A stretch of 64,000 bases of DNA from Bacteroidota bacterium (GCA_040756745.1 JBFLYO010000016.1:8655-72654), one strand, 5' to 3'; positions 17,591 through 44,299 are shown, counted from the stretch's first letter. The notes: a model not told the origin generated them from the sequence alone. Translations and numbers: made by a program.

Positions 17591-17591
17591 G

Positions 17592-22674: not shown

Positions 22675-24155
22675 GGCTCGGTGTGCGCAAGCTGGTGAAG
22701 GATGTTCTGCATTGCCGGGAAGAGTTCCCGGTACCGAAGGAAGAGTCGATCGTATCGCCGGACGCGGGAGGGACGCGGACGGAAGGTGCGCGCCGTGCGC
22801 ACCGTGGCCCGCACCGCCTCTTCGGCGGAGCGGTAGATCCCTGTCCCGACTCCTGCCATAATCGCCGCCCCCAGGCAAGCGGCCTCCGTCACTTCCGGCA
22901 CGACCACGGGACGGTTCATGATGTCCGCCTTGATCTGCATCCAACGTGGTGATTTGGCGCCTCCTCCGATTGCGCGGAATCGGCGAATGCGTATCCCGCC
23001 CGCGGCGAGCAACTCGACGTTCAGCCGCATCTCCATGGTGACCCCTTCCAGGAGTGCTGCGGTAATCTCGCCGCGGGCCGTGGAAAGCTGAAGCCCTGCA
23101 ATCACGCCGCCGGACCGGGTATCAAAGTACGGCGTTCCGGTCATCGTGAAATGCGGCAGTACCAGAAGACGCGACGGAACATCGCCGGAGGCGCTGACCA
23201 GCCCGTCATAGCTTCCGCCGAATGTGTCGCGGTACCACCGCAACAGCGAACCGCCCGTGAAGTTGAATGCGAGCGAAACGTACTTCCCCGGAACGATGTG
23301 GGGATAGACACAGAGGTTGTTCCGCATGAGCCCGGCTGAGGTCAGAGGTCTGGTGAATGTCGGCACTATGCACTCCACCGTCCCCGTGGCGTACATCGCC
23401 TCGTCATGCCCCGTAACCCCTGCACCAAGCGCACCGCACGGCTGATCATGGCCCCCGGCGACCACGCGAACACCCCTTGACAGCCCCAGCGCCGCCGCCG
23501 CGCGCGAATCAAGCTCGCCGATCACTGTGCCTGAGGGAACCGGCCTTGCCAGCAGTGCCTGGTCGAGCCCGGCCGTGTGCAGTATTCGGTCCGACCACAT
23601 CAGGCGGGAAACGTCGAACCCCATGGTGCGTGCAGCGAGCGAGAAGTCGATGCAGGGTTCCACACCGGCACGGAGGGCAAAGAAGTCCTGAAAGCAGAGA
23701 TAGCGTGCAGTCCGGCGGGTCAGGCCGGGCTTGAACTTCCGGAGCCACTGGATTTTGGGGAGCGTCGCCATCGCGCTCAGCGGGATGCCGGTAATCGCGA
23801 AGATCCGCCTGCGGCCCATCCGCCGATCCCACCACGACACCAGCGGCTCGGCCCGTCCATCGAACGTCACGATGCTGTTGTGCAATACGCGGCCAGTCCG
23901 GTCCACCGGCATGAAGGCTTCTCCCTGCGCGGAAACTGCGAGCGCTGTTACAGGATCACGCCGCGTTGCCTCAGCGACTGAGCGAACCGCACGGACTGTT
24001 TTCTTCCAGACCTCCTCGGGATCCAATTCGATCCAGCCGGCCCGGGGAAATAGTAAAGGGTATTCCGTCGATGACGACGCGATCTGCTTCCCTTCGCGAT
24101 CAAAAGCGACCGCCTTGCATCCAGTGGTCCCGATGTCGATGCCGAGAAGACTCAC
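22671..24155 (-). CDS. FGGY-family carbohydrate kinase (probable rhamnulokinase)
   Basis: 494 aa. N-terminal LGIDIGTTGCKAV and the FGGY C-terminal domain (GGGAKSPRWMQIKADI). Lies between rhaI and the rhamnulose-1-P aldolase fusion. Confidence 0.7.
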   Translation of the reverse strand: MSLLGIDIGTTGCKAVAFDREGKQIASSSTEYPLLFPRAGWIELDPEEVWKKTVRAVRSVAEATRRDPVTALAVSAQGEAFMPVDRTGRVLHNSIVTFDGRAEPLVSWWDRRMGRRRIFAITGIPLSAMATLPKIQWLRKFKPGLTRRTARYLCFQDFFALRAGVEPCIDFSLAARTMGFDVSRLMWSDRILHTAGLDQALLARPVPSGTVIGELDSRAAAALGLSRGVRVVAGGHDQPCGALGAGVTGHDEAMYATGTVECIVPTFTRPLTSAGLMRNNLCVYPHIVPGKYVSLAFNFTGGSLLRWYRDTFGGSYDGLVSASGDVPSRLLVLPHFTMTGTPYFDTRSGGVIAGLQLSTARGEITAALLEGVTMEMRLNVELLAAGGIRIRRFRAIGGGAKSPRWMQIKADIMNRPVVVPEVTEAACLGAAIMAGVGTGIYRSAEEAVRATVRTARTFRPRPSRVRRYDRLFLRYRELFPAMQNILHQLAHTEP

Positions 24156-24167
24156 GCATGCACCTCC

Positions 24168-26228
24168 TCAACGCACGAACGCCGCAGAGACTCCGCCGTC
24201 CACGGTGAGCACCCCGCCCGTCGTCTTCAGTGATCGGTCGGAGGCAAAGAAGAGAGTGGCCTCAGCGATGTCTTCGGGGAGGATGCTCTCGCCGAGCAGC
24301 GTCCGTTTGCGATAGAACTCCTCCAGTTGATCGGGGGAGATCCCGTAAGCCGCCGCACGTTCTTTCCGCCATGACCCGCTCCAGATCGACGACCCCTGCA
24401 GGACAGCGTCGGGACAGACCGTGTTCACGCGTATCTTCCTGCTCCCCCCCTCTTCGGCGAGGCACCGGGCGAGATGCAGCTCCGCTGCTTTGGCGGCGCT
24501 GTACGCGGTCGCATTCTTCCCGCTGGCAAGTGCATTCTTGGAGGCGATGAAGATAATCGATCCGCCGATCCCCTGCCGCGCCATGACGCGGAACCCTTCG
24601 CGGGCGACCAGGAAGTACCCCTTGCCGAGGATGTCCATCTGCTTCTGCCACTGCTCGACGGTCGTCTCTTCGATCGGGTTGGCGGACGAAATGCCTGCGT
24701 TGGACACGACGATATCCAGGCCGCCGAATGTCGCGACAGCCGCGTCGACCGCTGCCTCCACGTCCGACTCCTTTGCCACATCCATCCCGCACGCAATGGC
24801 GCGTCCCGGGCCTTGCGCGGCCGTGATTTCGGCGGCAACGGCTTTCGCCCCCGCCTCATTGATGTCCCCGATCGCGACGTGACACCCCTCGGCTGCGAAC
24901 CGTTTGGCGATCGCACGTCCGATGCCGCTCGCTCCCCCGGTCACGAACGCCGCACGGCGCGCGAGCGATTTCTCGGGAGGCGCGAGCGAGAGTTTGTAAA
25001 TCTCGAGGGGCCAGTATTCCACACTGAAGGCCTCCGGCGGCGTCATCGAGACATACGTGCTCACGGTGGATGCGTTCCGGATCACGGAGATCGTCCGGTG
25101 GTAGATGTCGCGCGTGATGTCCGCCGTCCCCTTATCTTTGCCCGTCGTGACCATCCCCATGCCGGGGATCAGGATGACGCGCGGAGAGGGATCGTACATC
25201 CTGTCCCCTCTGGACCGGTGCTTCGAAAAGTATTTCTCATAGACGCGGACATATTGCTCCAGCGCATCTTCAAACCGCTCGCCGAAGGAGGCGGCGGCTG
25301 ACGGTTTGAACCCCGCAATGACGAGGGGATAGAGTTTTGTGCTCACGAGGTGATCGGGACACGCCGCACCCTTTCCTGCAAGCGCAGCGAGTTTCCTGCT
25401 GTTGACGAACTCCAGCACCTCTGGCGAATCGTCAAAGGTAAGTATCATGCGGGTGCGCTTGCTTACAGCGCCGCGGATGATCGGGAGAGAGCGCAGCGCG
25501 AACTCCTTCCGGACTCGTTCGGGCGCCGCATGCACCTTCGCGCCGCCAAAGACCTTCTTTCCCGCCAGACGGCGAGCGAAAAAGTCCTGCGCCTCGGCGA
25601 TGACGGTGATCGTGTTGTCATAAGACTCTTTTGCCGTCGCCCCCCACGTGATCAATCCATGCTTCCCGAGCAAGACTGCACGGAGCCGGTCATTGCCGTT
25701 GATCAACGCGCCACACTGTTTCGCCAGGGCGAACCCCGGCCGGAGCCATGGCAGCCACGCCGCCCTGTCGCCGCAAATTTCCTTCATGAGTCGGGGACCA
25801 TCCTTTGAAGTACAGAGGGCGATGATCGCATCCGGATGCATGTGATCGATATGCGTGTGGTCGATGAACGCGTGGATGAGCGCGTCGATCGAGGGACGCC
25901 GCGCGTTCAGGTCCACCAGGCAGTGCGCCAGATACTCCACCATCTCCTCGTCGCTCATGGAGGCACGGCTCCGGAGCTCCAGGACGGGGTCCAGGGCGAC
26001 GCCGGGGAAGCCGGCCCGGGTGCTTGTGCGCAGGTCACCCCCGCTCCCTTTCACCCGCATCACGCGGATCGGCTCCCCCCGGAAGTCCTTCTCCATGATC
26101 TTTGCCGAGGTGTTGCCTCCCGCCCAGTTGGTCACCGAGGGGTCTTCCCCCAGGATGTTGGAACGGTAGACCAGCAGGTCGAATTCGTTCAGGCCTTTCG
26201 CCTTCTTCTCATCCCAGTAATTCTTCAT
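24168..26228 (-). CDS. bifunctional rhamnulose-1-phosphate aldolase / short-chain dehydrogenase
   Basis: 686 aa. N-terminal class II aldolase domain (LLVYRSNILGEDPSVTNWAGGNTSAKI) fused to a C-terminal SDR domain (TGGASGIGRAIA ... YSAAKAA), as in the YuxG/RhaEW-type fusion. Confidence 0.8.
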   Translation of the reverse strand: MKNYWDEKKAKGLNEFDLLVYRSNILGEDPSVTNWAGGNTSAKIMEKDFRGEPIRVMRVKGSGGDLRTSTRAGFPGVALDPVLELRSRASMSDEEMVEYLAHCLVDLNARRPSIDALIHAFIDHTHIDHMHPDAIIALCTSKDGPRLMKEICGDRAAWLPWLRPGFALAKQCGALINGNDRLRAVLLGKHGLITWGATAKESYDNTITVIAEAQDFFARRLAGKKVFGGAKVHAAPERVRKEFALRSLPIIRGAVSKRTRMILTFDDSPEVLEFVNSRKLAALAGKGAACPDHLVSTKLYPLVIAGFKPSAAASFGERFEDALEQYVRVYEKYFSKHRSRGDRMYDPSPRVILIPGMGMVTTGKDKGTADITRDIYHRTISVIRNASTVSTYVSMTPPEAFSVEYWPLEIYKLSLAPPEKSLARRAAFVTGGASGIGRAIAKRFAAEGCHVAIGDINEAGAKAVAAEITAAQGPGRAIACGMDVAKESDVEAAVDAAVATFGGLDIVVSNAGISSANPIEETTVEQWQKQMDILGKGYFLVAREGFRVMARQGIGGSIIFIASKNALASGKNATAYSAAKAAELHLARCLAEEGGSRKIRVNTVCPDAVLQGSSIWSGSWRKERAAAYGISPDQLEEFYRKRTLLGESILPEDIAEATLFFASDRSLKTTGGVLTVDGGVSAAFVR

Positions 26229-26278: not shown

Positions 26279-28180
26279 TCACTGGTTCTCGTATTCTGCG
26301 GCGGTTTTGATTTCCGACTTCTTTCCGAAGTACCACATGAGGGCGCCGAAGATGACCATGATCGCAACCAGTGCTCCCATGATCCACGCTTCGCCGGGGT
26401 CGATGTCGGAGAACAGGATGAGACTCATCAGGAGCCCCATGACGATCGTGGTCCCGCCGACGAGTGGGAATGTCGAGACCTGTTTCTTCCCGGCGCCGAA
26501 GACCTCCCTGGCCACGTTCACCGGCGTGTCGAGCTTGCGGAAGAACTCCTCGATGATCCTCCGCTCCTCCTCCGTCTCCGATGCAAAGAGCCGTGCGAAG
26601 CCGTACAGACTCACGGCGAGCACGACGGCACTCACGACCGCCAGGATCTTCTGCCATTCCTGCGCACCGGACGGGAGGGTGCCGTTGAACAGCAGGAACG
26701 TCGCGAGCGCGACCATTATCGCGGCGACGACGAGCAGGCCTTTCTTCCCCCTGTACCATTGCCCGAGGCGGTGCGATCCCACAAAGATCCCGAAAGACAT
26801 CACGAACGCAAGATAGACCTGAGGGCCAATGTCCCAGCCGAGCGCATACCTCGTCGTCGCTCCGACCACAAGCCCCCAGACGATCGAAGCAACCGCCGAC
26901 CATTTGGGGACCCGCCGGAAGAGAAGACCGAAGGCGGTCGGAACCACGACGGGAATATTCAGAAGCGTGAAAAATGCCTGCATGAGGTTGAAGATGCCGA
27001 ACTGGCTCGTTACAAAGATCACGGCCAGCGTCGTCACGATGAGTCCGAGTGCGACGGAAAATGATCGTCCCACCTTCAGCAGCCCCGTGTCCGTCACTTC
27101 GGGTCTGACCCAGCCCTGGTAGATGTCGCGCGACAGGATCGATGATACCATATTATAGACGGAGCTGAGCGTGCTCATCGTCGCTGCGAGCATCGCCGCC
27201 AGGAACACCCCGATCAGTCCGTTGGGGAGCAACTTGAGGCAGAGCGCGATGAAGACGAGATCCTGCGGATTGCTCCCCACGTAGGGCTTGAAAAAATCCA
27301 CCTGGGAGAGATCGGGCCAGATGACGCGCGCGACGAGCGGCGGAACGCCGAAGACGAACGGCACAGTGAGGAAGAGGCCGCCCGCGAGCTTCCCCACCCG
27401 TTTTGCGTCCCGTTCGTCCTTCACGCTGTAGAACCGCTGTGCCGCGCCGGCCGCCGTGCCGAGACACATAATGATGAATATGGAGATGAGCCAGTGCTCC
27501 GTATAGTGCACGCCGTTGTACGTATGATCCAGCGAGAGGGGGGGGAGTGCGCTGATGAGGTTCGCCGGTCCGCCGACCAATCCGAGTGCGAGAGGCATCA
27601 CGAGGAACGTGATGCTGAGGAGAATCGCCCCCTGCACGACGTCCGTGATCGACACCGCCCAGAGCCCACCCATAAACGTATAGACGAGGATGACGACGCC
27701 GGTGACCACCGTGACCATGGTGATGTCCAGCCCCATCACGGGGGCCAGCAGCTTGCATGTCGCGGCGAGCTGGACGCCTGCGGAAAGTGTGAAGTTCAGC
27801 GAGATGACCAGGCTGAGGAACTGCTGCGTGGTGAAATTAAACCGCGTATAGGTGTATTCGACGGGGGAGATCGAGCGGGTGCGGCGCCAGCGTGAGGCGG
27901 TGAGCTGGGATCCGGTGTAGTACGAGACCGACCAGGTCCCGAAGTAGAGGATCGCGAACCACCCCGTCGCGTACGCAAACCCCGCCGCGCCGGTGAACGT
28001 CCACGCGCTGAAGTTCGCCATGTAGAGCGTCATCCCGGATACCCACCAGGGGATCATGCTGCCGCCGGCAAAATACTCCTTCGCCCCCTTGTTGATCTTC
28101 ATGAAGTACAGCCCGATGCCGAGCATGAAGAGAAAATAACCGGCGATGACGATGTAGTCGTAGACGTTTACCGCTTTCAT
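26279..28180 (-). CDS. sodium:solute symporter (SSS) family transporter, paralog 1
   Basis: 633 aa and highly hydrophobic. N-terminus YDYIVIAGYFLFMLGIGLYF...YFAGGSMIPWWVSGMTLYMANFSAWTFTGAAGFAY is typical of the SSS family. 4-nt overlap with the upstream paralog. Confidence 0.85.
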   Translation of the reverse strand: MKAVNVYDYIVIAGYFLFMLGIGLYFMKINKGAKEYFAGGSMIPWWVSGMTLYMANFSAWTFTGAAGFAYATGWFAILYFGTWSVSYYTGSQLTASRWRRTRSISPVEYTYTRFNFTTQQFLSLVISLNFTLSAGVQLAATCKLLAPVMGLDITMVTVVTGVVILVYTFMGGLWAVSITDVVQGAILLSITFLVMPLALGLVGGPANLISALPPLSLDHTYNGVHYTEHWLISIFIIMCLGTAAGAAQRFYSVKDERDAKRVGKLAGGLFLTVPFVFGVPPLVARVIWPDLSQVDFFKPYVGSNPQDLVFIALCLKLLPNGLIGVFLAAMLAATMSTLSSVYNMVSSILSRDIYQGWVRPEVTDTGLLKVGRSFSVALGLIVTTLAVIFVTSQFGIFNLMQAFFTLLNIPVVVPTAFGLLFRRVPKWSAVASIVWGLVVGATTRYALGWDIGPQVYLAFVMSFGIFVGSHRLGQWYRGKKGLLVVAAIMVALATFLLFNGTLPSGAQEWQKILAVVSAVVLAVSLYGFARLFASETEEERRIIEEFFRKLDTPVNVAREVFGAGKKQVSTFPLVGGTTIVMGLLMSLILFSDIDPGEAWIMGALVAIMVIFGALMWYFGKKSEIKTAAEYENQ

Positions 28181-30117
28181 TTGGCCTCCGTTGCGGATTG
28201 CGCCCGCCTGCCTCCCTGAATTCTATGAGGCGGGCAGGGATCGCGGATTTCGGAACGCCGCCCGAAAAACCAGAGCGATGCACCAAAGACCGCCATCATC
28301 GCGATCAACGCGGCAACGACAGTCCGCTCGGTGTCGGTGAGATCGGTCAGGAACACCAGGCAGAGAAGCCCCGCCATGATGAGCATCGTGATGCCGACCA
28401 GCGGAAAAATCGATATCTGCTTCTTCCCTGCACCGAACACCTCCCGCGCGACGTCGACGGGGGTGTCCAGCTTGCTGAAGAATTCCCTGACGGTCGCGCG
28501 GTCCTCGTCGGTCTCGCGGGTGAACAGCCCGGCGAAGAAATAGAGACTTATGCCAAACCCCGCCGCCGAGAGCCAGGCCAGCGGCACGACCGCGTCAACC
28601 AGAGGATTTACGATGGCGTTGGTGAAGAGCAGACCGACAGCAACGGTGACGATCGCGGCGATCATGAGGAGCATGGGCTTGCGCTTCACATAGAGCTGGG
28701 CCGTCCACCGGGAGGTTGCAAAGATCGCCATCGTCAGGACGATCGCGAGGTAGACCTGCGGGCCGATGTCCCATCCGAGCAGGTAGCGCGCAGTGACGCC
28801 TGCGAGAAGCCCCCACGTGACCGCAGCGACCGCCGACCATTTCGGCACCCTGCGGAAAATCAGCCCGAACGCCATGGGAACAGCAACCGGGATATTGAAG
28901 AGCGTGAAGAAGGCCTGCATGAGGTTAAAGATGCCGAACGTGCTGGTCACGAACACGACTGCGAGTCCGATCACGATGATCCCGATTCCCAGAGAGGCCC
29001 TCCTGCCTACGCGCAGCATCTCCGCATCATCCAGCCGCCTGCGCGCGATCGCCCCGTACATGTCGCGCGCGACGATCGACGAGACCATGTTGTACACCGC
29101 GCTGAGGGTGCTCATGGTCGCCGCCAGCATTGCCGCAATGAAGACGCCAATAAGCCCGTTCGGCAGAAACAGCAGGCAGATGCCGATATACACGAGATCC
29201 TGCGGATTGCTCCCGGCATACGGTTTGAAGAAATCCACCTGCGCCAGGTCCGGCCAGAAGACCTTCGCCACCAGCGGAGGCACGCCGAAGATCACCGGGC
29301 CGAGGAGAGAGAGAACACCGGCAAATATCCCCACCTTCAGCGCCGACTTCTCGTCCTTCACCGAGTAGAACCGCTGGCCGCCACCCGACGCAAACCCGAT
29401 CGTGGTAATCACGAACATGGCGATGAGCCAGTGTTCATTGTATCTGACACCGTTGTAGACATGATCGAGCGAAAGAGGGGGAAGCGCCTCAAGCAGCTTC
29501 ACCGGTCCTCCCACCAGATGGAGACTTAGCGGGACCACGATAAACGTCGTGCACAGAAGAATCACTCCCTGCACCACATCGGTCACCGATACGGCCCACA
29601 CGCCGCCGAGGAACGTGTAGAGGAGGATGACGATCCCGGTCACCAGCGTCACGGTCACGATGTCGGCCCCCATCACCGGTGCGAGAAGCTTGCATGTGGA
29701 CGCGAGCTGGACGCCTGCCGAAAGCGTGAAGTTCACAGAAATCACCCAGCTCACAAACTGTTGCGTGGGAACGTTGTACCGGGCGTACGTGTATTCGACC
29801 GGCGAGATGGAACGGGTCCTTCTCCAGCGCTTCGCTGTCATGAGCGAGCCGAGGAAATAGGCGAACCCTCCCGTCCCCCACGAGAGCAACATGAAGAGCC
29901 CAGTGGTGTAGGCGAACCCTGCCGCACCGGTGAATGTCCAGGCGCTGAAGTTGGCCATGTACAGGGTCATGCCGGAGACCCACCAGGGGATCATGTTTCC
30001 GCCGGCGAAATACTCTCGCGCCCCTTTGTTGACGCGGATGAAGTAGAAGCCAATCCCGAGCATGAACAAGAAATAGCCCGCGACCACCAGGTAATCCAGA
30101 ATGTTGACGGACTTCAT
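28177..30117 (-). CDS. sodium:solute symporter (SSS) family transporter, paralog 2
   Basis: 646 aa. Co-linear homolog of 26279..28180 (tandem duplication). Start overlaps the upstream aminotransferase stop (ATGA). Confidence 0.85.
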   Translation of the reverse strand: MKSVNILDYLVVAGYFLFMLGIGFYFIRVNKGAREYFAGGNMIPWWVSGMTLYMANFSAWTFTGAAGFAYTTGLFMLLSWGTGGFAYFLGSLMTAKRWRRTRSISPVEYTYARYNVPTQQFVSWVISVNFTLSAGVQLASTCKLLAPVMGADIVTVTLVTGIVILLYTFLGGVWAVSVTDVVQGVILLCTTFIVVPLSLHLVGGPVKLLEALPPLSLDHVYNGVRYNEHWLIAMFVITTIGFASGGGQRFYSVKDEKSALKVGIFAGVLSLLGPVIFGVPPLVAKVFWPDLAQVDFFKPYAGSNPQDLVYIGICLLFLPNGLIGVFIAAMLAATMSTLSAVYNMVSSIVARDMYGAIARRRLDDAEMLRVGRRASLGIGIIVIGLAVVFVTSTFGIFNLMQAFFTLFNIPVAVPMAFGLIFRRVPKWSAVAAVTWGLLAGVTARYLLGWDIGPQVYLAIVLTMAIFATSRWTAQLYVKRKPMLLMIAAIVTVAVGLLFTNAIVNPLVDAVVPLAWLSAAGFGISLYFFAGLFTRETDEDRATVREFFSKLDTPVDVAREVFGAGKKQISIFPLVGITMLIMAGLLCLVFLTDLTDTERTVVAALIAMMAVFGASLWFFGRRSEIRDPCPPHRIQGGRRAQSATEAK

Positions 30118-31400
30118 CTTTGTGTTCGCGTTGTGGCAGTTTTCACCCCCTCGAGGACACGATCGACTTCGTCCGGCATATTGTAAATGTGCGTCGAGAC
30201 GCGCAGCGCCGCCATCCCCCCCTCACCGACAGGTCGCGTGCGCAAGTTGTAGGTGGTCAGGTGATTCTGGAGCTCCAGGTGAGGGAGCGCCTCATGCGAA
30301 AACGTGATCATCGCGCTTCGCATGTCATCGGCTTCGGGCGAATGCACCCTGACGCCGGGGATTTCCCGCAGCCCGCGATAGAGCCGCGTGGAAAGCATCC
30401 TGTCGCGCTCCCACACCTGCCGGATGCCGATACGCCGGATAAACCTGACCGCCTCCCACAGTCCAACCCGCAGTGGGACGTTCACGGTCCCGTACTCGTA
30501 CCTCTGGGCCGAAGGGTGGAAGGCGAGCGTCCCCTTGAGGAAATCAAAGCCACCATCGGAATACGCGCCCACCGAGGTCGCCCTCACGGTGTCGAGCATT
30601 GCGCGGCGCACATACAGTACCCCCGTTTCCTTGGGACCCATCAACCACTTGTGTCCGCTGGTGGCGTATGCGTCACATCCGATCTCATGCAGGCTGAACG
30701 GGAACATGCCTGCCGTCTGGGCGCCATCAACGAAGAACCAGATGTTCCTGGCCCTCGCCATCGTTGCGATGTCGCGTACCGGGAGAATGAGCCCTGTTGT
30801 CGTCACGGCATGGGGGACGGAAATCAGCCGGGTCCTCTTAGAGAACAATGCGGCGATCCGGTCGAGATTCTCCTGCTGCGACTGGATCGATGGTTCAAAC
30901 AGTCTCAGCACCACCCCGGTCCGTCTGGCAAGAGCAAGCCATGGGAGTGCATTGCCCACATGTTCATGGGTGGTCAGGATGACCTCGTCGCCCGATCTGA
31001 GAGGCAGCCCGTTGGCGACGATGTTGATTCCTTCAGTGGTGTTCCGGGTGAACGCGACCTCATCGTCGCCGCAGCCGAGGAGGGACGCGATGTCTGTCTT
31101 GATCTCCTTCCAGAGCTGCTCGTCGCGGCCGGTTTCGGAGATTCTCTCGAGCTCCCGCATCTTTGTCGTCACCGCGTCGATCACGGCATAGGGAGACGCA
31201 CCGAGTCCGCCGGTATTCAGATAGGCCCGGTCACGTTCCAGAGGGAACTGTTCGCGGAGGAACTCCCAGAACGACTCATCGGCCGGGTCGCCGGACGGCC
31301 AGGGGGGAGGAGACGCGGCGGCAGTGCCGGCCGCGAAGGGGGGCATGAGCATTGCGCCTGCAGCTGCGGCACCGATCCGCACGAATGTTTTCCTGTTCAT
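30114..31400 (-). CDS. class V PLP-dependent aminotransferase-fold enzyme with N-terminal export signal
   Basis: 428 aa. Signal-like N-terminus MNRKTFVRIGAAAAGAMLMPPFAAGTAAA. Class V aminotransferase / cysteine-desulfurase fold with the PLP lysine motif SGHKWLMGP. Confidence 0.7.
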   Translation of the reverse strand: MNRKTFVRIGAAAAGAMLMPPFAAGTAAASPPPWPSGDPADESFWEFLREQFPLERDRAYLNTGGLGASPYAVIDAVTTKMRELERISETGRDEQLWKEIKTDIASLLGCGDDEVAFTRNTTEGINIVANGLPLRSGDEVILTTHEHVGNALPWLALARRTGVVLRLFEPSIQSQQENLDRIAALFSKRTRLISVPHAVTTTGLILPVRDIATMARARNIWFFVDGAQTAGMFPFSLHEIGCDAYATSGHKWLMGPKETGVLYVRRAMLDTVRATSVGAYSDGGFDFLKGTLAFHPSAQRYEYGTVNVPLRVGLWEAVRFIRRIGIRQVWERDRMLSTRLYRGLREIPGVRVHSPEADDMRSAMITFSHEALPHLELQNHLTTYNLRTRPVGEGGMAALRVSTHIYNMPDEVDRVLEGVKTATTRTQR

Positions 31401-31517
31401 AGCTCGATCTCCATTGCTACCGTTGATCCTCTCCGCGGATAAGGAATCAGCAGCGTCAGGGCCGGTGTCTTGATAAAGTCGCGGCGGTTCATGAGTTTGC
31501 TATCGATTCGGAATTAA

Positions 31518-31536
31518 TGGTTCGCCGTTAATCGGA
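31518..31536. repeat. 19-nt motif GGTTCGCCGTTAATCGGAT (copy 1 of a direct repeat)
   Basis: An identical motif with one substitution occurs at 33892..33910. This copy also has an imperfect inverted partner ATCCGATTACTTGTGAACCG at ~31576..31595. Confidence 0.5.
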
Positions 31537-31620
31537 TAGCCGGGTTAACAGATAACTGTTGACTGTTAAGATCGATCCGATTACTTGTGAACCGCGATAG
31601 ATGAATACAAGATGGCAACA

Positions 31621-33852
31621 TCAGAGATTCGCTACCACTCTGACCCTCCTCCCCTTCCCCGGATACGCCATCTCTATCCTCCCATCCTTCATTGCCACCG
31701 GCCTGCCATCGACGGTCGCGCCGGGAGGTCCGCCATTTCGCCTGACCTCGAGCTCAATCGTCGCACCGCGAACATTCTGCGTCGTGTGCAGCGCCGCAAT
31801 CGCTTTGAGCGGCTTCGGGCGGATGACAAGCCGGTCGATTTCTGGCCTTATCCCCGCGAAGTGACTGACAAAAAGGAGGACAAACTCCGCCCAGGTCCAG
31901 CCGACCACGCAGACCGGTGGGGCCGGCGGCGTAATGCTCGGCCCGTAGCGCTCGAACCAGGCGCCTGCCTTTCCGCCATGCATATCGTTGAGCCAATGGA
32001 GCGCACGCCACACTTTTTCATCGTTCCCCGTCTCAGCATAGGCGCGCGCCACGAAGAGCGTCGCAAAAGGCCAGGGGGCGGGGGGATCGGGCTCGCTCGT
32101 GGTGTTGTAGCGCGAATATCCGCCATGCGTCCAACTCTGATTCCAGAGCGATTCCATTGATTCGAGCGTCGCCGCGGCAAGGGGGCTCTTCGGATCGACC
32201 ATCCCGAAGACCACCGGCAGGACGCACGACGTGTCGGGGTCACATTCTGGTTTCTCAATGGTCGCAAGCGGCGACCCGGGGGGCATTGCGCTCCGGTTGG
32301 CGGGGATCGTGTGGCGCTGCCATCGACTGTCGCGTGTTCGTCGCTTGATGAGCGCACCGTTCTCGATCATGCGGAACTTCGGGTGCTCAAGCATCCCGTA
32401 GCGGATCTTTGCGGCCGCAGCAGTCCACCGTCGCGCAACAGCCCGATCCCCCAGCACGGAGGCCAGCGCCGCCCCCTTCTCGAGCCCGATCGCCACCCAG
32501 AACTGGTAGCTCAGCTCGAAACCGTCTTCAATGCCGAACATCTCTCCTCCCCGCTCCCAGAATTCACGCTTGTTCCTCATGAGACCCGACTCGGGATCCC
32601 AGAACACGGGCAGAAGCGGGTAATCGCCGGCGCGCACAAGTGTCTTCCAGTGTTTCCGTATCAGGGCTTCATTCCCCGTCCAGCAAAAATACGACCAGGC
32701 GCCATAGAGCAGCGCACCGTTCTGATCCAGCTCCGTCAGGTCGTACCCCGACCAGCGGCTCGACTCGACCATGCAACCGTCGGGCGCGACGGAGCGTTCG
32801 AGCGTCTTGACGAGCATTGTCCTCGCTTCGTCCGGGAAGCCGGCATGGAGAAGTCCGAGCATCACCATCATGTCGTCGCGGACCCACTCCATGTTATACA
32901 TCCAGATCCCGCTGTCCCGTTTGCCGGTGCGGCTGATCATGCCCTTCAGGCAGGTGCGGGATGCGGCGAACTGGTGGTCGAGTACCTGATCACCCGAAAC
33001 AAACGTGTTCCGGCTCGCCCAGTACGCCGACGTTGTGGCGGAGAGCGAGTCGTGCTTCTTCTTGGTGATTGCCCGCTTACCGGCATCGAGCTGATAGACG
33101 AGGATGACATTACGCATCGCCCCCGGATGCACGGGGCCCGGCGTGATGGTCAGATCATACCGGCCGGAGGTCTTGACGTTCTCTTCGAGCGCGTACAGTT
33201 TCATCGAGGCGAACCCGCGCGCCTCCACGGATTGGTCCTGCGAATTGACACCGATGTCGTCGAAGAGCGCAAAGCTGGGGACGAGCGCGACGCCGATGGT
33301 CGGTTCGACGGGGAGATCGGACGTGTTGGAGAGCGCAAGCGCTCTGAAAAGGAATCTCCCCTCACTCGGGACCCAGAGATACTCCCGGACAGCGCACGCA
33401 CCCGCCTTCCACGCCACGATCACCGTGGGAATATCGCCGGGGTAGCTCCAACCAACAGACTCGACGGTTTCCGGCGACGGCGCGTGTCCCTTCCCCTCGA
33501 TCCACACGGATGCCATGCTTCGATCTAAGCCCCGCTCCGGGTGGAAGAGGAACGTGCTCCACTTGCGGGCGAACCGTTCCGCGTCCATGATGGTGAGCCC
33601 GAGAAACGTCATCGGGCGCTCACCGGAGCGGTCGGGCATATACTGCAGTACCACCTGGATCTCGCCGTTGCCAAGCATGAAGTACTCGATGCCCGGCGCA
33701 TAGGTTTCGAAATCCTGATGGAGGCGCTGTCGATGCTGTTGCCAGTTCGCCTGCGAAGGAGCAGTCGTGTCTCCGTCCATGGCAAGATGCCCGAAGGAGC
33801 GCGGCAAGAGAGCCGCGAGGGCGGGGGCTGCAAAGAATTCGCGTCGTTTCAT
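31621..33852 (-). CDS. Tat-exported six-hairpin glycoside hydrolase, GH15/GH63-like (glucoamylase/trehalase type)
   Basis: 743 aa. Twin-arginine signal MKRREFFAAPALAAL. N-terminal beta-rich region followed by (alpha/alpha)6-like helices with a W-x-RD motif (IWMYNMEWVRDDMMVMLGL) and FWERGGE, resembling GH15-type enzymes. Family call is tentative. Confidence 0.45.
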   Translation of the reverse strand: MKRREFFAAPALAALLPRSFGHLAMDGDTTAPSQANWQQHRQRLHQDFETYAPGIEYFMLGNGEIQVVLQYMPDRSGERPMTFLGLTIMDAERFARKWSTFLFHPERGLDRSMASVWIEGKGHAPSPETVESVGWSYPGDIPTVIVAWKAGACAVREYLWVPSEGRFLFRALALSNTSDLPVEPTIGVALVPSFALFDDIGVNSQDQSVEARGFASMKLYALEENVKTSGRYDLTITPGPVHPGAMRNVILVYQLDAGKRAITKKKHDSLSATTSAYWASRNTFVSGDQVLDHQFAASRTCLKGMISRTGKRDSGIWMYNMEWVRDDMMVMLGLLHAGFPDEARTMLVKTLERSVAPDGCMVESSRWSGYDLTELDQNGALLYGAWSYFCWTGNEALIRKHWKTLVRAGDYPLLPVFWDPESGLMRNKREFWERGGEMFGIEDGFELSYQFWVAIGLEKGAALASVLGDRAVARRWTAAAAKIRYGMLEHPKFRMIENGALIKRRTRDSRWQRHTIPANRSAMPPGSPLATIEKPECDPDTSCVLPVVFGMVDPKSPLAAATLESMESLWNQSWTHGGYSRYNTTSEPDPPAPWPFATLFVARAYAETGNDEKVWRALHWLNDMHGGKAGAWFERYGPSITPPAPPVCVVGWTWAEFVLLFVSHFAGIRPEIDRLVIRPKPLKAIAALHTTQNVRGATIELEVRRNGGPPGATVDGRPVAMKDGRIEMAYPGKGRRVRVVANL

Positions 33853-34123: not shown

Positions 34124-35701
34124 CTAATAGCTCACCACCACCTCAGCCCTCCCCTTCATCCGAATCTCCGCATCCGCATACCTGCTCTGCTCTACTCGAA
34201 TCGTCCTGAAGCGCACCGACTTTCCGTTCGCGGTCACCTTCGACGGCAGCCCGCCCTCCGGCAACAACAGGTGAAGATGAACGACTGCGGGGCCCGTGAT
34301 CGTCATCGCAATCTGCCGCGTCGATGGATCGTGTTCATATGTGTACGAAACCGCCGCACCAGACGCTGCATACCCAACGGTGACCTCGGCATTGCGCGAG
34401 CCCGCTGCCGGCCATCGCGGCGCCAGCGAAATTTCCCTCAGGAGCGATCCGCGATCCACTACACCGGCAAGCCCTTCCATCAGTGCCCACAGCATCGCAG
34501 ACGATCCCCACCCGTCGGTGGGGGAGGCCTCAGGGCTCGTGCTTGTCTCCACCGTGGACGGGCGCCCGTCGGGGAAATACCAGAGGTACGTTTCATTGTT
34601 CCGCGTGAGCTCTTCGTACTTCAGGAGCTGCTTTACCCCGTACTCTTCGAACCCATGTTCGAACGCAGCGCGCGCGAGCTCCCCGCCAACGAGCGGCATA
34701 ATGCCGCCGTTGCAGTAGGCCCCGGGGACGAGTTTCGCTTCTCCGAAGGCCCCGGCGGGGAACGGGGGATCGATGCTGAACCAGGGGGCGAACGCGCCGG
34801 TGGTCCGGCCGCGTGACTCGTACTCCCGGATGATCGATACCGCTATGGCATGTGTCGACATTCCCCGGTTGATCCCCATCGGGTTGCTGAGACTGAGCTG
34901 CGCTGTCTCGTCGACCCCGGGCACCGTGCGCGGCGTGAGCGGGACATGGTGAGTATAGAATCTTCCGTTGAAGCACACCCGGTTCGCGCGCGTGCGTAAC
35001 GCCGCCGCCTCGTCCAGCCAGTATCGGGCCCGCTTCCTGTTCTTCAAGACTTCATGGCACCGCGCCATCAGCAGGAACGCTTCGTACGTACCGGAATTGT
35101 CGCCGTGCATGATCCCCCAGAACGTCTGATCGTCGATCTGAAAGTTCAGCCAATGGTGCCTCCCGGCGGTGTAGTCAAAGTCCCACGTGTCGATGGTCAA
35201 TGCTCGCTTAACCAGCCGCGTCTTCCGGTCCCACCGCCAGGGGTCGCTCACCGAGTACGCAAGACCCTTCTCCATGTGCGGCATCATCCGTCGCAGCCAG
35301 CGATCGTCGCCGGTCGCCTGCCACGTCAGGTAGACCGCCTTGACGAAGCGAAATTCGACGTCGGCCTCAACGGGGACGCGGATGTACCGGGCCCAGTTCT
35401 CTCGCTCCGCAGGGGGCTTTTCGGGGAGCGTCCCAAAATTGTCGAAGAGCCACCCCTGCGCCGACTGTGTCTCGGCGAAGTGGTCGATGGCCCCGTTCAG
35501 CTCCTTCTCCCAGTACCGACCAGCCCTGACGATATCCGAATGGTCCCGCAACCAGATGCTCGGGGAATCCGGGGAGCGGAAGCCCCTCAGGCGCTTTCCC
35601 AGCATGGTGTACTCGACGACATCGGCCGCAAGAAAGTCGCGGATGCGCGGCACGAGCGAGTCGAGGCGAGGGGCATCGCTGCGTAAGGTCGTTTCGCTCA
35701 C
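34124..35701 (-). CDS. cytoplasmic hypothetical protein, possible (alpha/alpha)6 glycoside hydrolase (GH63/GH125/GDE-like)
   Basis: 525 aa, no signal peptide. W-x-RD motif (SIWLRDHSDIV) and helix-pair composition suggest a six-hairpin glycosidase. Weak call. Confidence 0.3.
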   Translation of the reverse strand: MSETTLRSDAPRLDSLVPRIRDFLAADVVEYTMLGKRLRGFRSPDSPSIWLRDHSDIVRAGRYWEKELNGAIDHFAETQSAQGWLFDNFGTLPEKPPAERENWARYIRVPVEADVEFRFVKAVYLTWQATGDDRWLRRMMPHMEKGLAYSVSDPWRWDRKTRLVKRALTIDTWDFDYTAGRHHWLNFQIDDQTFWGIMHGDNSGTYEAFLLMARCHEVLKNRKRARYWLDEAAALRTRANRVCFNGRFYTHHVPLTPRTVPGVDETAQLSLSNPMGINRGMSTHAIAVSIIREYESRGRTTGAFAPWFSIDPPFPAGAFGEAKLVPGAYCNGGIMPLVGGELARAAFEHGFEEYGVKQLLKYEELTRNNETYLWYFPDGRPSTVETSTSPEASPTDGWGSSAMLWALMEGLAGVVDRGSLLREISLAPRWPAAGSRNAEVTVGYAASGAAVSYTYEHDPSTRQIAMTITGPAVVHLHLLLPEGGLPSKVTANGKSVRFRTIRVEQSRYADAEIRMKGRAEVVVSY

Positions 35702-35835: not shown

Positions 35836-36579
35836 TCATATGCCGCTGACTGGCATCACTGCCTGTACGTCAGCCCGGAAGACCCACGTGCCGGGCGCGA
35901 CGAAATGTGTTGCAAATGCCCGCCGTACCCGATCCTTCGACCGGTTAGCATACGAGCCATGGATGGTCAGGCCTGAAAAAAACACTCCTCCCCCCTTCGG
36001 GACGGCGAGGAATTTCATGGCCGACCGGTCCACACCGTCGATCTCGAACGAGTAAAAGACCTGCTTCCATTCCCTGCCGTCGCGATCGCGCATGAGGTGC
36101 TCCGACTGCCACACCTGGTGGTCTTTCATGGAGGTCGCTTTGTGCGTATCGTACAGTCCTTTCGCGTGGCTTCCCGGCAGAACGCAGAGCCCGCCGTTCT
36201 CCTCGTCCGTGTCGCTCATCGCAAGCCAGCACGCCATGAGCGTGTTGGGCTCGTTGGGAAGGTAATGCGTATCCTGATGCAGGGCCGTCCCCTTCGCTTC
36301 TTCGCCGGGAAATTTCTCCAGGTACATGGTCTGGACAATGGAAGGTGTGCCTCCGAGCATCTGCTCTGCGACTCCGGCGATATTCTGATGGGTCGCAATG
36401 GCCCGCCAGCGCGCGTCCCGCTTGTGGTTGTCGAGCCGCGATCGCCACTCCTTCGACTGCGCCGCCTCGTACGCCACGTACTCGTCCACCTCGCTGGGCG
36501 TGAGGAGGCCCACAACAACGATAAAGCCCTCGTCCCGGTACCGCGAGTGCTCTGCCGCGGAGAACATTCGTCCGCTCAT
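35836..36579 (-). CDS. phytanoyl-CoA dioxygenase (PhyH) family Fe(II)/2-oxoglutarate oxygenase
   Basis: 247 aa. HQDTHY (H-x-D facial triad) and a distal His in LTIHGSYAN are typical of the PhyH family. Confidence 0.75.
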   Translation of the reverse strand: MSGRMFSAAEHSRYRDEGFIVVVGLLTPSEVDEYVAYEAAQSKEWRSRLDNHKRDARWRAIATHQNIAGVAEQMLGGTPSIVQTMYLEKFPGEEAKGTALHQDTHYLPNEPNTLMACWLAMSDTDEENGGLCVLPGSHAKGLYDTHKATSMKDHQVWQSEHLMRDRDGREWKQVFYSFEIDGVDRSAMKFLAVPKGGGVFFSGLTIHGSYANRSKDRVRRAFATHFVAPGTWVFRADVQAVMPVSGI

Positions 36580-36583
36580 GGCT

Positions 36584-39518: not shown

Positions 39519-39532
39519 GGAACCGGTCCGCG

Positions 39533-40567: not shown

Positions 40568-40626
40568 TGCGTTCTCAACGTGAATTGCGTCCGGCGGAAT
40601 TCAGATATCTGATATCAGAATTCGAA

Positions 40627-40671
40627 GGGGGGTAACCACCTTCGACAACCCACGCAAGGCGATTACCCCCC
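40627..40671. terminator. stem-loop GGGGGGTAA ... TTACCCCCC between the PorV-like and MetE-like genes
   Basis: 9-bp GC-rich stem enclosing a 27-nt loop. It is followed by TTT on the plus strand and by a U-containing tract (UUCGAAUUCUG) on the minus strand. Adjacent is a TCAGAT/ATCTGA repeat palindrome at 40597..40623. Confidence 0.3.
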
Positions 40672-40706
40672 TTTGCTGTTGGTCGGGACAGCAGTACGGC
40701 AGGTCG

Positions 40707-41732: not shown

Positions 41733-41760
41733 AGGACTGTCCTCTATCATAGATGGTCAG

Positions 41761-44289: not shown

Positions 44290-44299
44290 TCGATCGGCA

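What the first reader, a model, noticed from the sequence alone, without database searches (positions are those of the whole stretch)
30114..31400. Class V PLP aminotransferase-fold enzyme with an export signal, first gene of the rhamnose operon
The protein has the PLP-lysine motif SGHKWLMGP and the class V aminotransferase / cysteine desulfurase fold. It starts with a hydrophobic, Tat-like leader (MNRKTFVRIGAAAAGAMLMPPFAAGTAAA). Its stop overlaps the start of the first sodium:solute symporter (ATGA). Exported PLP enzymes are uncommon, and nothing in canonical L-rhamnose catabolism needs one. It may act in the periplasm on an amino-sugar or on the glycan before uptake.
Basis: partly seen in the sequence, partly recalled or inferred. 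Interest (0 to 1): 0.55.

Follow-up and report, generated by a model that had tools for sequence, protein, structure and literature searches.

The report
Exported PLP enzyme in glycan-utilisation locus
This gene encodes a vitamin-B6 (PLP) enzyme with an export leader, from a large uncharacterised family that bacteria keep inside a conserved sugar-polymer-utilisation gene cluster; it is tied to that cluster, not to rhamnose breakdown, and its chemistry is still unknown.

Summary
A 428-aa class V (SufS-like) PLP enzyme is encoded on the minus strand at 30114..31400. It has the lysine motif SGHKW, a conserved N-terminal leader, and an ATGA overlap with the next gene, a sodium:solute symporter.

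- It is not a cysteine desulfurase. The catalytic Cys loop is deleted, while all PLP-binding and alpha-carboxylate-binding residues are kept.
- The leader is Tat-like in hydrophobicity and ancestry: distant family members carry R-R-x-F. Here, and in most close relatives, the second arginine is lost (R-K).
- Exported class V enzymes are not rare in sequence space. Of the best 150 library representatives, 89 have a twin-arginine leader. Only PvdN is characterised.
- The gene is not specific to rhamnose. In 49 related loci RhaD occurs 5 times. The constant partners are a Tat-exported GH94/GH15-like protein, a cytoplasmic relative of it, symporters, a heparinase II/III-like protein, a second aminotransferase and amidohydrolases.
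- A 31-codon relic of a deleted upstream gene overlaps its start codon.

Best reading: a periplasmic PLP enzyme that acts on an amino-acid-like group of an imported glycoconjugate. The exact reaction is unknown.

The parts
30114..31400 (-). Gene for the 428-aa class V-fold PLP enzyme (called AT5 in this report).
   Evidence: ORF and translation. Pfam Aminotran_5 E 1.8e-63. Predicted fold has TM 0.80 to SufS structures. More than 1400 homologs.
31314..31400 (-). Export leader, residues 1-29. The n-region is M-N-R-K-T-F-V-R, the h-region is rich in Ala and Gly, and the likely signal-peptidase site is A-A-A|S.
   Evidence: R3 and F6 are invariant in the family. Distant members carry R-R-x-F. The h-region hydropathy of 1.56 equals that of the Tat-type neighbours and is far below the Sec-type leaders of the window, 2.4-3.0. 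pLDDT is <50 over residues 1-30. The TIGR01409 profile is not matched.
30648..30650 (-). Codon of K251, the PLP Schiff-base lysine in the motif S-G-H-K-W.
   Evidence: Aligns with E. coli SufS K226. Invariant in the family and in the wider exported clade.
30201..30242 (-). Active-site loop L386-R-T-R-P-V-G-E-G-G-M-A-A-L399, followed by R400. It replaces the Cys364 loop of SufS: R389 = SufS R359, G394 = SufS C364, there is a 9-residue deletion, and R400 = SufS R379.
   Evidence: MAFFT alignment with E. coli SufS. The signature RxRxVxE...R is conserved across the wider exported clade.
31397..31492 (-). 31-codon mini-ORF MNRRDFIKTPALTLLIPYPRRGSTVAMEIEL*. It is an in-frame deletion relic of a second U743-type gene, and its TGA stop overlaps the ATG of the PLP enzyme gene.
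   Evidence: Sequence. Its N-terminus matches the U743 family leader and its C-terminus matches the last 14 residues of the intact paralog in L006, L025, L041 and L049. In L006 that paralog's stop overlaps the AT5 start.
31493..31620 (-). Non-coding gap of 128 bp at 42% G+C. It holds a 24-nt block at 31514-31537, repeated upstream of U743 at 33887-33910, and a perfect palindrome TTAACAG-N11-CTGTTAA at 31545-31569. This is a candidate promoter/operator.
   Evidence: No consensus promoter or terminator was found above chance.
31621..33852 (-). U743: a 743-aa protein with a canonical Tat leader (MKRREFF). Its architecture is beta-sandwich + (alpha/alpha)6 barrel + beta-sandwich, like GH94, GH15 and GH65 enzymes. 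It is the commonest gene immediately upstream of AT5.
   Evidence: No Pfam hit. Structure model pLDDT 84, and Foldseek TM 0.66 to cellobiose phosphorylases, E 1e-26. Immediately upstream in 31 of 66 loci.
28177..30117 (-). Sodium:solute symporter a. Its start overlaps the stop of the PLP enzyme gene.
   Evidence: Pfam SSF. Closest solved relatives are the sialic-acid symporter SiaT (5nv9) and then the SGLTs. An SSS gene lies immediately downstream of AT5 in 25 of 63 loci.
26279..28180 (-). Sodium:solute symporter b, with an ATGA overlap with symporter a.
21394..26228 (-). Accessory L-rhamnose cassette: RhaD aldolase/dehydrogenase (24168-26228), FGGY kinase (22671-24155) and RhaI isomerase (21394-22674).
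   Evidence: NCBIfam TIGR02632 scores 881 bits and TIGR02629 scores 668 bits, both above cut-off. Present in only 4-5 of 49 related loci.
34124..35701 (-). U525: a cytoplasmic 525-aa protein and the most constant partner of AT5. It is distantly related to the catalytic part of U743.
   Evidence: Found in 38 of 51 loci with upstream sequence. hhalign probability 52%, E 1.5e-4, over 395 columns. No Pfam or PDB hit.
12695..20493 (-). Downstream conserved partners: AP_endonuc_2 (19666-20493), DUF4432, GFO/IDH/MocA, a heparinase II/III-like protein with a canonical Tat leader (15572-17590), a class III aminotransferase (14319-15575), and Amidohydro_2.
   Evidence: Pfam. Co-occurrence. TIGR01409 passes for the heparinase-like leader.
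35836..47581 (-). Upstream conserved partners: two PhyH dioxygenases, U722, a MetE-like protein, a PorV-like outer-membrane protein, the 842-aa protein U842, and a TonB-dependent receptor.
   Evidence: Pfam. Co-occurrence.

Best explanation
The gene encodes an exported, PLP-dependent enzyme of the SufS / C-DES / PvdN branch of the class V fold. It has lost the persulfide-forming cysteine.

Shown:
- It keeps the complete PLP site and both arginines that anchor the alpha-carboxylate of an amino-acid substrate.
- It carries a conserved leader of Tat character.
- It is a core gene of a locus conserved across Ignavibacteriota/Bacteroidota, KSB1, Latescibacterota and others. That locus combines a TonB-dependent receptor, Tat-exported GH-like and heparinase-like proteins, sodium:solute symporters, and cytoplasmic sugar-, amine- and amide-processing enzymes.

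Inferred:
- The protein binds PLP in the cytoplasm and is exported folded, as PvdN is.
- In the periplasm it acts on a free alpha-amino-acid-like group carried by the imported glycoconjugate or its fragments.
- The most likely reaction needs no co-substrate, for example a beta/gamma-elimination or a PvdN-type decarboxylation.
- The product enters the cell through the translationally coupled SiaT/SGLT-like symporters.

The rhamnose genes are a lineage-specific add-on to this locus and are not the reason the enzyme is there.
For: Fold and cofactor site:
- Pfam 215 bits, and TM 0.80 to SufS structures.
- Alignment with E. coli SufS keeps H123, D200, Q203, H225, K226, R359 and R379. C364 becomes Gly next to a 9-residue deletion, and H124 becomes Val.

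Leader:
- Conserved at protein level.
- 16 of 19 distant members have R-R-x-F.
- Hydropathy equals that of the canonical Tat leaders in the same locus and is far below the Sec-type leaders.
- 89 of the best 150 library representatives have twin-arginine leaders and share the GHKW and RxRxVxE..R signatures.
- Precedent: PvdN and PtaA are Tat-exported with bound PLP (PMC6206403).

Context:
- Gene order is conserved, with counts: U525 in 38/51, AP_endonuc_2 in 28/49, SSS in 26/49, RhaD in 5/49.
- U743 is GH94/GH15-like.
- In KSB1 the gene lies next to SSS, class III aminotransferase, Amidohydro_2, creatininase-like, PhyH and heparinase-like genes in a different arrangement.
- ATGA overlaps join AT5, SSSa and SSSb.
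- All characterised neighbours in this branch act on L-alpha-amino acids whose side chain carries the group of interest: SufS, CsdA, C-DES, EgtE, PvdN (established knowledge).
Against: - No substrate is identified.
- U743, U525 and U722 belong to uncharacterised families, so the polymer is unknown.
- The query's own leader has R-K, and many close relatives have R-S, R-N or R-E. TIGR01409 does not match. Tat export is therefore not proven, and Sec export or a membrane anchor is possible.
- The reaction type (lyase, transaminase, decarboxylase or epimerase) cannot be read from the sequence.
- The wider exported clade has heterogeneous neighbourhoods, so context-based inference holds only for this subfamily.
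- SufS is as close as PvdN or closer, so the analogy with PvdN is functional, not phylogenetic.
Confidence: 0.55

Rival explanations
1. Periplasmic transaminase or deaminase acting on an amino sugar or on an amine of the glycan before uptake.
For: Class V contains true aminotransferases (PhnW, SerC). There is a weak partial DegT_DnrJ_EryC1 hit of 22 bits. The locus holds another aminotransferase and amidohydrolases, which suggests a nitrogen-bearing substrate. PtaA shows that periplasmic transamination exists. The nearest solved symporter carries an acidic amino sugar.
Against: Both carboxylate-anchoring arginines of SufS are kept. The nearest characterised relatives are lyases or desulfurases, not transaminases. 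A transaminase needs a keto-acid partner in the periplasm. The DegT hit covers only residues 111-231, so it reflects fold-level similarity only.
Confidence: 0.15
2. A general periplasmic amino-acid-degrading enzyme, for example a cystine or other C-S/C-O lyase on free amino acids or peptide N-termini. It would be linked to the locus only for nitrogen or sulfur scavenging and would not process glycans.
For: C-DES cystine lyase is among the closest solved relatives (122 bits; 242 bits to the clade profile). A Polaribacter member of the wider clade sits next to an M28 peptidase. The window also encodes an S9 peptidase.
Against: In this subfamily the gene is embedded between GH-like genes and symporters, often with overlapping stop and start codons, across several phyla. 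That is not expected for a housekeeping scavenger.
Confidence: 0.15
3. The leader is a Sec signal or an uncleaved membrane anchor, not a Tat signal. PLP would then be acquired after export, or the enzyme would remain tethered to the membrane.
For: The twin arginine is degenerate in the query (R-K) and in 34 of 41 scorable close relatives (2 more had no motif call). TIGR01409 does not match. U743 in the same genomes keeps R-R, so the loss is specific to this protein.
Against: The h-region hydropathy of 1.56 is typical of Tat leaders in this locus and well below the window's Sec leaders at 2.4-3.0. R3 and F6 are invariant. The ancestral state is R-R. Single R-to-K changes are tolerated by Tat in E. 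coli (own knowledge, not checked here).
Confidence: 0.2
4. A cytoplasmic cysteine desulfurase or selenocysteine lyase, as JGI labels the homologs.
For: Best NCBIfam and PDB scores are to SufS-type enzymes. JGI names are given.
Against: The catalytic Cys is absent and its loop is shortened by 9 residues. The TIGR01979 score of 188 is below the 475 cut-off. The leader is conserved. None of the genes scanned between 1 kb and 63 kb is a SufE/SufU/SufBCD gene.
Confidence: 0.02

Closest known systems
PvdN (Pseudomonas pyoverdine-tailoring periplasmic PLP enzyme; PDB 5i90/5hh9; NCBIfam NF051467)
   Same: Class V fold, no catalytic cysteine, and an N-terminal export leader that aligns from residue 2-3. 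It acts in the periplasm on an L-amino-acid moiety with a free alpha-NH2 and alpha-COOH attached to a larger molecule. It is exported by Tat with PLP already bound (PMC6206403).
   Different: The score is only 101 bits against a cut-off of 650. PvdN is no closer than SufS or C-DES. There is no pyoverdine context. The leader here has R-K instead of R-R. The neighbourhood is a glycan-utilisation locus.
SufS / CsdA type II cysteine desulfurases (E. coli SufS)
   Same: Best sequence and fold match: 26-29% identity, TM 0.80. All PLP-binding residues and R359/R379 are kept.
   Different: C364 is absent, with a 9-residue deletion in its loop. H124 is replaced by Val. The protein has an export leader. 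No SufE/SufU partner is present. The score is below the family cut-offs.
C-DES L-cystine C-S lyase (Synechocystis; PDB 1elq)
   Same: A cysteine-less member of the same branch that performs a co-substrate-free beta-elimination. It scores 122 bits to the query and 242 bits to the clade profile.
   Different: It is cytoplasmic and has no leader. It stands alone and has no glycan-locus context.
PtaA, periplasmic transaminase A of Pseudomonas
   Same: A Tat-exported PLP enzyme that works in the periplasm on a conjugated glutamate (PMC6206403).
   Different: Its sequence relation to this protein was not tested here because no PtaA sequence or paper was available. It is described as an ordinary transaminase.
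'Isopenicillin N epimerase' label on Bacteroidota homologs (e.g. Polaribacter huanghezhanensis P0435)
   Same: Member of the same wider exported class V clade.
   Different: The label is an automatic annotation. No beta-lactam genes are in the neighbourhood, and epimerase activity is untested.

Membership tests
Class V-fold (Aminotran_5) PLP enzymes | Pfam PF00266 match above the gathering score. | tested here: met
   215.2 bits against 21.5, residues 94-415.
Class V-fold (Aminotran_5) PLP enzymes | Schiff-base lysine in S-x-H-K, plus the Asp and Gln that bind the pyridine ring and the His that stacks on it. | tested here: met
   K251, H250, S248, D225, Q228 and H147 align with E. coli SufS K226, H225, S223, D200, Q203 and H123. 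They are invariant in the family.
Class V-fold (Aminotran_5) PLP enzymes | Fold type I two-domain structure. | tested here: met
   AlphaFold model pLDDT 82.7. Foldseek TM 0.78-0.80 to SufS structures.
Cysteine desulfurase SufS/CsdA (type II) | Catalytic cysteine in the C-terminal active-site loop (E. coli C364). | tested here: not met
   The aligned position is G394 and the loop is 9 residues shorter. HMMER alignments place R387 there instead. In neither alignment is it Cys.
Cysteine desulfurase SufS/CsdA (type II) | NCBIfam family score above cut-off. | tested here: not met
   TIGR01979 188 against 475; NF006791 140 against 661; CsdA 122 against 607.
Cysteine desulfurase SufS/CsdA (type II) | Adjacent sulfur acceptor (SufE/SufU/CsdE) and cytoplasmic location. 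| tested here: not met
   No such gene among the Pfam-scanned genes between 1 kb and 63 kb. The protein has an export leader.
PvdN | NCBIfam NF051467 score above cut-off. | tested here: not met
   101 bits against 650, although the alignment covers residues 2-419.
PvdN | Located in a pyoverdine (pvdMNO) cluster. | tested here: not met
   The neighbours are GH-like, SSS and rhamnose genes.
Tat (twin-arginine) export substrates | S/T-R-R-x-F-L-K motif in the n-region. | tested here: inconclusive
   The query has N-R-K-T-F-V-R: the first Arg and the Phe are kept, the second Arg is Lys. Close relatives have RK 15, RS 9, RR 7, RN 5, RE 3, RM 1 and RT 1. Distant relatives have RR in 16 of 19.
Tat (twin-arginine) export substrates | Match to the TIGR01409 TAT_signal_seq profile. 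| tested here: not met
   No hit for the query. Relatives score 10-13 bits, below the 16.7 cut-off. The neighbouring heparinase-like leader passes at 19.7.
Tat (twin-arginine) export substrates | Weakly hydrophobic h-region and an A-x-A cleavage site. | tested here: met
   The maximum 12-residue Kyte-Doolittle mean is 1.56, with a family mean of 1.64. Tat-type neighbours give 1.54-1.9 and Sec-type leaders in the window give 2.4-3.0. The site is A-A-A|S at residues 27-30.
Tat (twin-arginine) export substrates | Export depends on TatABC. | not testable with these tools
   Needs a reporter fusion in tat+ and tat- hosts. SignalP and TatP were not available.
L-rhamnose catabolic operon | Conserved co-occurrence with RhaI, RhaD and the kinase in relatives. 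| tested here: not met
   RhaD in 5 of 49 and RhaI in 4 of 49 loci with more than 6 kb downstream. SSS in 26 of 49 and AP_endonuc_2 in 28 of 49.
L-rhamnose catabolic operon | Same-strand, closely spaced arrangement in this genome. | tested here: met
   AT5/SSSa and SSSa/SSSb overlap by ATGA, there is a 50-bp gap to RhaD, and FGGY/RhaI overlap by ATGA. A weak terminator-like hairpin at 26262-26274 is not above chance.
Sugar aminotransferases (DegT/DnrJ/EryC1) | Full-length Pfam PF01041 match. | tested here: not met
   22 bits over residues 111-231 only.

The most novel reading that the evidence does not exclude
The enzyme is a periplasmic PLP-dependent 'glyco-amino-acid lyase'. After peptidases and glycosidases have trimmed an imported glycopeptide or glycoconjugate, it would bind the remaining amino-acid stub, with its free alpha-NH2 and alpha-COOH, and release the glycan by beta-elimination. 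This would be an enzymatic counterpart of the chemical beta-elimination used to release O-glycans. It would yield a free sugar for the coupled symporter plus pyruvate or 2-oxobutyrate and ammonia. That would be a non-hydrolytic way of deglycosylation not described so far.

Indirect hints:
- The cysteine-less C-S-lyase-type active site with both carboxylate-binding arginines.
- GH38 and GH47 mannosidases, a rhamnosidase-like protein and an S9 peptidase in the window.
- GH38 next to the gene in KSB1-type loci.
- An M28 peptidase next to a clade member in Polaribacter.
Probability: 0.12. Interest if true: 0.85.

Novelty: new variant of a known kind. Interest (0 to 1): 0.5.

Why it matters
Enzymes that need PLP were long thought to be essentially cytoplasmic. 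PvdN and PtaA are the only periplasmic, Tat-exported examples that have been studied, and both serve siderophore tailoring.

This protein belongs to a very large clade of class V enzymes that carry an export leader and have never been studied. The library search found 1433 representatives at E <= 1e-30, and most of the best 150 have twin-arginine leaders.

The subfamily found here is built into a conserved glycan- or glycoconjugate-utilisation locus of abundant uncultured soil and sediment bacteria (Ignavibacteriota, KSB1, Latescibacterota). Several of its neighbours also have no known family.

Finding its substrate would add a cofactor-dependent step to periplasmic glycan processing. It would also help to identify the polymer these lineages feed on.

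The decay of the twin arginine in one lineage, while the neighbouring Tat substrate keeps it, is a natural experiment on how Tat recognises its signals.

Tried and rejected
- Searching the PDB with the N-terminal 97 residues, to align the leader with PvdN, gave only noise.
- U722 has no PDB or profile relative. U525 has no significant PDB hit.
- Scans for sigma-70 promoters, intrinsic terminators and the Bacteroidota TAnnTTTG motif were at or below chance. Operon boundaries therefore rest on spacing and comparative data only.
- The 24-nt upstream block is absent from all 86 fetched loci, so it cannot be validated by conservation.
- The primary PvdN and PtaA papers were not held. A literature search for class V enzymes in polysaccharide-utilisation loci returned nothing relevant.
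- The plus-strand cluster (GH47, S9 peptidase and others) is not within 10 kb of the gene in other loci, except for the creatininase-like gene in two KSB1-type loci. Its link to the enzyme is therefore weak.
- Contexts of three members of the wider exported clade were heterogeneous, so no clade-wide function can be inferred.
- The cysteine desulfurase / selenocysteine lyase annotation was rejected.
- A downstream alternative start was rejected, because the leader is conserved.


Full report
**Observation**

The finding's coordinates correspond to a minus-strand ORF, 30114..31400, of 428 codons. It matches Pfam Aminotran_5 at 215 bits, E 1.8e-63. It contains SGHKWLMGP, with the lysine codon at 30648-30650. 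It starts with MNRKTFVRIGAAAAGAMLMPPFAAGTAAA.

Its stop overlaps the ATG of a sodium:solute symporter (ATGA, 30114-30117). That symporter overlaps a second one in the same way. The plus-strand ORF over the same bases is an antisense artefact of a 61% G+C genome.

The start codon is sound:
- In 32 homologs of 63-75% identity the leader aligns, with R3 and F6 invariant.
- The first Met after the leader is M81. Starting there would delete the invariant NTGGLGASPY block.
- AlphaFold gives pLDDT below 50 for residues 1-30 and a confident domain from about residue 40 onward.

**What the protein is**

The best sequence and fold matches are type II cysteine desulfurases (SufS): 26-29% identity and TM 0.80. 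No NCBIfam family cut-off is reached: SufS 188 against 475, CsdA 122 against 607, PvdN 101 against 650.

An alignment with E. coli SufS shows what is kept and what is lost:
- The PLP site is intact: H147, D225, Q228, S248, H250, K251.
- Both arginines that hold the substrate alpha-carboxylate are kept: R389 = R359 and R400 = R379.
- The catalytic C364 is replaced by glycine within a loop shortened by nine residues.
- H124 is replaced by valine.

It therefore cannot form a persulfide, and the database labels 'cysteine desulfurase / selenocysteine lyase' are wrong. The retained arginines point to a substrate with a free alpha-amino and alpha-carboxyl group. This is true of every characterised member of this branch: SufS, CsdA, C-DES, EgtE and PvdN.

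**The leader**

The query has R-K where Tat substrates have R-R, and the TIGR01409 profile does not match it. The same profile passes for the heparinase-like neighbour, MPPSRREFLRATG.

Three results still favour a Tat-type signal:
- Among 60 genome-derived family members with a scorable start, those below 58% identity (KSB1, Latescibacterota, Verrucomicrobia and others) have R-R-x-F in 16 of 19 cases. The close, Ignavibacteria-like members have RK 15, RS 9, RR 7, RN 5, RE 3, RM 1 and RT 1, and two had no motif call. R-R is thus the ancestral state, and the first Arg and the Phe never change.
- The most hydrophobic 12-residue stretch of the leader scores 1.56, with a family mean of 1.64. The canonical Tat leaders of the locus score 1.54 and 1.9. 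Five Sec-type leaders in the same window score 2.4-3.0.
- The passenger is a cofactor enzyme. The characterised analogue PvdN needs PLP binding in the cytoplasm to be transported by Tat (PMC6206403).

Tat export remains an inference. Sec export or a membrane anchor is kept as a rival.

**How common the kind is**

A search of 1.84 billion cluster representatives gave 28,718 hits at E <= 0.001 and 1433 at E <= 1e-30. Of the best 150, at 32-64% identity (mostly 33-45%), 89 have an RR-x-[FLIVMGA]-[LIVMFA] leader.

Thirty of these share GHKW and RxRxVxE...R with the query. Against solved structures the clade profile scores SufS 255, C-DES 242 and PvdN 214 bits. PvdN is therefore an analogue, not the nearest relative.

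Exported class V enzymes form a large uncharacterised clade. Neighbourhoods of three wider-clade members differ: next to an M28 peptidase in Polaribacter, next to a MatE transporter in a metagenome contig (L089), and nothing telling in Algoriphagus. Context arguments thus apply only to the subfamily in this window.

**Context**

The window's minus strand carries a run of about 30 co-directional genes. In order these are:
- a TonB-dependent receptor, the 842-aa protein U842, and a PorV-like protein;
- a MetE-like protein, U722, two PhyH dioxygenases, and U525;
- U743, the PLP enzyme, and two symporters;
- RhaD, an FGGY kinase, and RhaI;
- IclR, AP_endonuc_2, DUF4432, GFO/IDH, and a heparinase II/III-like protein with a Tat leader;
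- a class III aminotransferase, Amidohydro_2, an (alpha/alpha)6-like protein, BNR propellers, PfkB, and GH38.

Eighty genome loci and five metagenome loci encoding relatives were fetched and mapped with the window's proteins.
- Upstream, in 51 loci with more than 6 kb: U525 38, U722 29, MetE-like 28, U743 21.
- Downstream, in 49 loci: AP_endonuc_2 28, SSS 26, IclR 21, class III aminotransferase 14, heparinase-like 12, RhaD 5, RhaI 4.
- The gene immediately upstream is U743 in 31 of 66 loci.
- The gene immediately downstream is an SSS in 25 of 63, a different FGGY kinase in 11 of 63, and AP_endonuc_2 in 9 of 63.

In a KSB1 locus the same partners appear in a different, divergent arrangement: SSS, class III aminotransferase, Amidohydro_2, creatininase-like, PhyH, GFO and heparinase-like. 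In Latescibacterota the gene sits beside the receptor/U842/PorV-like trio.

The rhamnose cassette is genuine: TIGR02632 scores 881 bits and TIGR02629 scores 668 bits, both above cut-off. It is nevertheless an insertion between the symporters and IclR that only a few close relatives share.

**Neighbours**

- U743 has no Pfam hit and is 'hypothetical' in all sources. Its model (pLDDT 84) is a beta-sandwich + (alpha/alpha)6 + beta-sandwich, like GH94 phosphorylases and GH15/GH65 enzymes (TM 0.66, E 1e-26). It has a canonical MKRREFF leader.
- U525, the most constant partner, is cytoplasmic. It is distantly related to the catalytic part of U743 (hhalign 52%, E 1.5e-4).
- U722 has no detectable relative.
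- The first symporter's nearest solved relatives are the sialic-acid symporter SiaT and then the SGLTs.
- The divergent plus-strand cluster encodes AP_endonuc_2, GFO/IDH, a creatininase-like protein, a rhamnosidase-like protein, GH47, an S9 peptidase and a URO-D-like protein. It is not near the gene in other loci, except for the creatininase-like gene in two KSB1-type loci.

**Is it the first gene?**

In L004 and L006 the stop of the upstream U743-type gene overlaps the start of the PLP enzyme gene. In the window, a 31-codon ORF at 31492..31397 reads MNRRDFIKTPALTLLIPYPRRGSTVAMEIEL*.
- Its first 17 residues are the U743-family leader.
- Its last 14 residues match the C-terminus of the second U743 paralog that is intact in L006, L025, L041 and L049.
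- Its TGA overlaps the ATG of the PLP enzyme gene.

It is an in-frame deletion relic of that paralog.

Upstream of it lies a 128-bp gap of 42% G+C. The gap holds a 24-nt block that recurs only upstream of U743 and a perfect palindrome. A local promoter is therefore plausible, but consensus scans are at chance level.

Within this genome, the relic, the PLP enzyme gene and the two symporters form the tightly coupled unit. The rhamnose genes follow after 50 bp.

**Mechanism**

Shown:
- an intact PLP enzyme without the desulfurase cysteine;
- a conserved leader of Tat character;
- core membership of a conserved locus that has outer-membrane import, Tat-exported GH-like and lyase-like proteins, symporters, and cytoplasmic sugar, amine and amide enzymes.

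Inferred:
- the enzyme is exported folded with PLP;
- it acts in the periplasm on an alpha-amino-acid-like group of the imported glycoconjugate or its fragments;
- the product enters through the coupled symporter.

The reaction type is not determined. A co-substrate-free elimination or decarboxylation fits the periplasm and the nearest relatives best. Transamination, as in PtaA, is the main alternative.

The most novel reading that is not excluded is a lyase that releases glycans from amino-acid stubs by beta-elimination (probability about 0.12).

**Verdict**

The framing needs correcting on four points:
- it belongs to a large unexplored clade of exported class V enzymes, with PvdN as precedent;
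- it is tied to a conserved glycoconjugate locus, not to rhamnose;
- its twin arginine is degenerate;
- it is not a desulfurase.

It is a new variant of a known kind, with interest about 0.5.

Noticed in passing
window 31397-31492 (minus strand): A 31-codon ORF that is an exact in-frame fusion of the first 17 and last 14 codons of a U743-type gene. It looks like a deletion relic at an 'IP/YP' junction. It still encodes a canonical Tat leader, and its stop overlaps the start of the PLP enzyme gene. It could be a real deletion or an assembly artefact.
   Followed up: partly
window 31514-31537 and 33887-33910 (minus strand); palindrome 31545-31569: A 24-nt block ATCCGATTAACGGYGAACCAYTAA occurs exactly twice in 64 kb (0 expected), each time 20-35 nt upstream of a U743-type start codon. 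Next to the first copy is a perfect TTAACAG-N11-CTGTTAA palindrome. The block is not found in the 86 fetched loci. It is a candidate operator or promoter.
   Followed up: partly
window 31621-33852, 34124-35701, 37350-39518 (minus strand): Three strongly conserved proteins without a Pfam family. U743 is a Tat-exported GH94/GH15-like (alpha/alpha)6 enzyme. U525 is a cytoplasmic distant relative with 72% mean column identity. U722 has no detectable relative at all. They are probably new glycoside hydrolase or phosphorylase families.
   Followed up: partly
family-wide (loci L001-L085); window 31389-31400: In the Ignavibacteria-like lineage the second arginine of the PLP enzyme's leader has decayed to K, S, N, E, M or T. 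The U743 protein of the same loci keeps R-R at 90% or more. This is a protein-specific relaxation of the Tat motif.
   Followed up: partly
window 40707-47581 (minus strand); L080-L085: The trio of a TonB-dependent receptor, the 842-aa protein U842 and a PorV/FadL-like barrel is conserved next to the PLP enzyme gene even in Latescibacterota. It looks like an alternative to SusC/SusD. By eye the C-terminus of U842 resembles a type IX secretion sorting domain; this was not tested.
   Followed up: no
window 47684-60871 (plus strand): A divergent cluster encodes AP_endonuc_2, GFO/IDH, a creatininase-like protein, a rhamnosidase-like 6-hairpin protein, GH47 alpha-mannosidase, a 959-aa S9 peptidase, a URO-D-like protein and a fucose-isomerase-like protein. 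Together with GH38 at 1035-3959 it hints at a mannose- and rhamnose-containing glycoprotein substrate.
   Followed up: partly
L050 3685-9748; L051; window 12695-15575 and 50393-51157: A module of a class III aminotransferase, Amidohydro_2 and a creatininase-like protein recurs near the PLP enzyme gene in different arrangements. This suggests a cytoplasmic amine/amide-processing branch of the same pathway.
   Followed up: partly
L070 8888-9682: An Fpg/Nei-type (H2TH) DNA-glycosylase-like gene sits directly upstream of the PLP enzyme gene in a KSB1-type locus. That is an odd place for a DNA repair enzyme. The family works through a Schiff base with a sugar aldehyde and beta-elimination.
   Followed up: no
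window 26262-26274 (minus strand): A weak terminator-like hairpin followed by TTTTTT lies in the 50-bp gap between the second symporter and RhaD, at the junction where the rhamnose cassette is inserted. The number of such sites in the region is not above chance.
   Followed up: no
L087 16113-16760: In Polaribacter huanghezhanensis a pyridoxamine-5'-phosphate oxidase gene lies 5 kb from the exported class V homolog, and an M28 peptidase gene lies directly downstream of that homolog. This may be coincidence.
   Followed up: no
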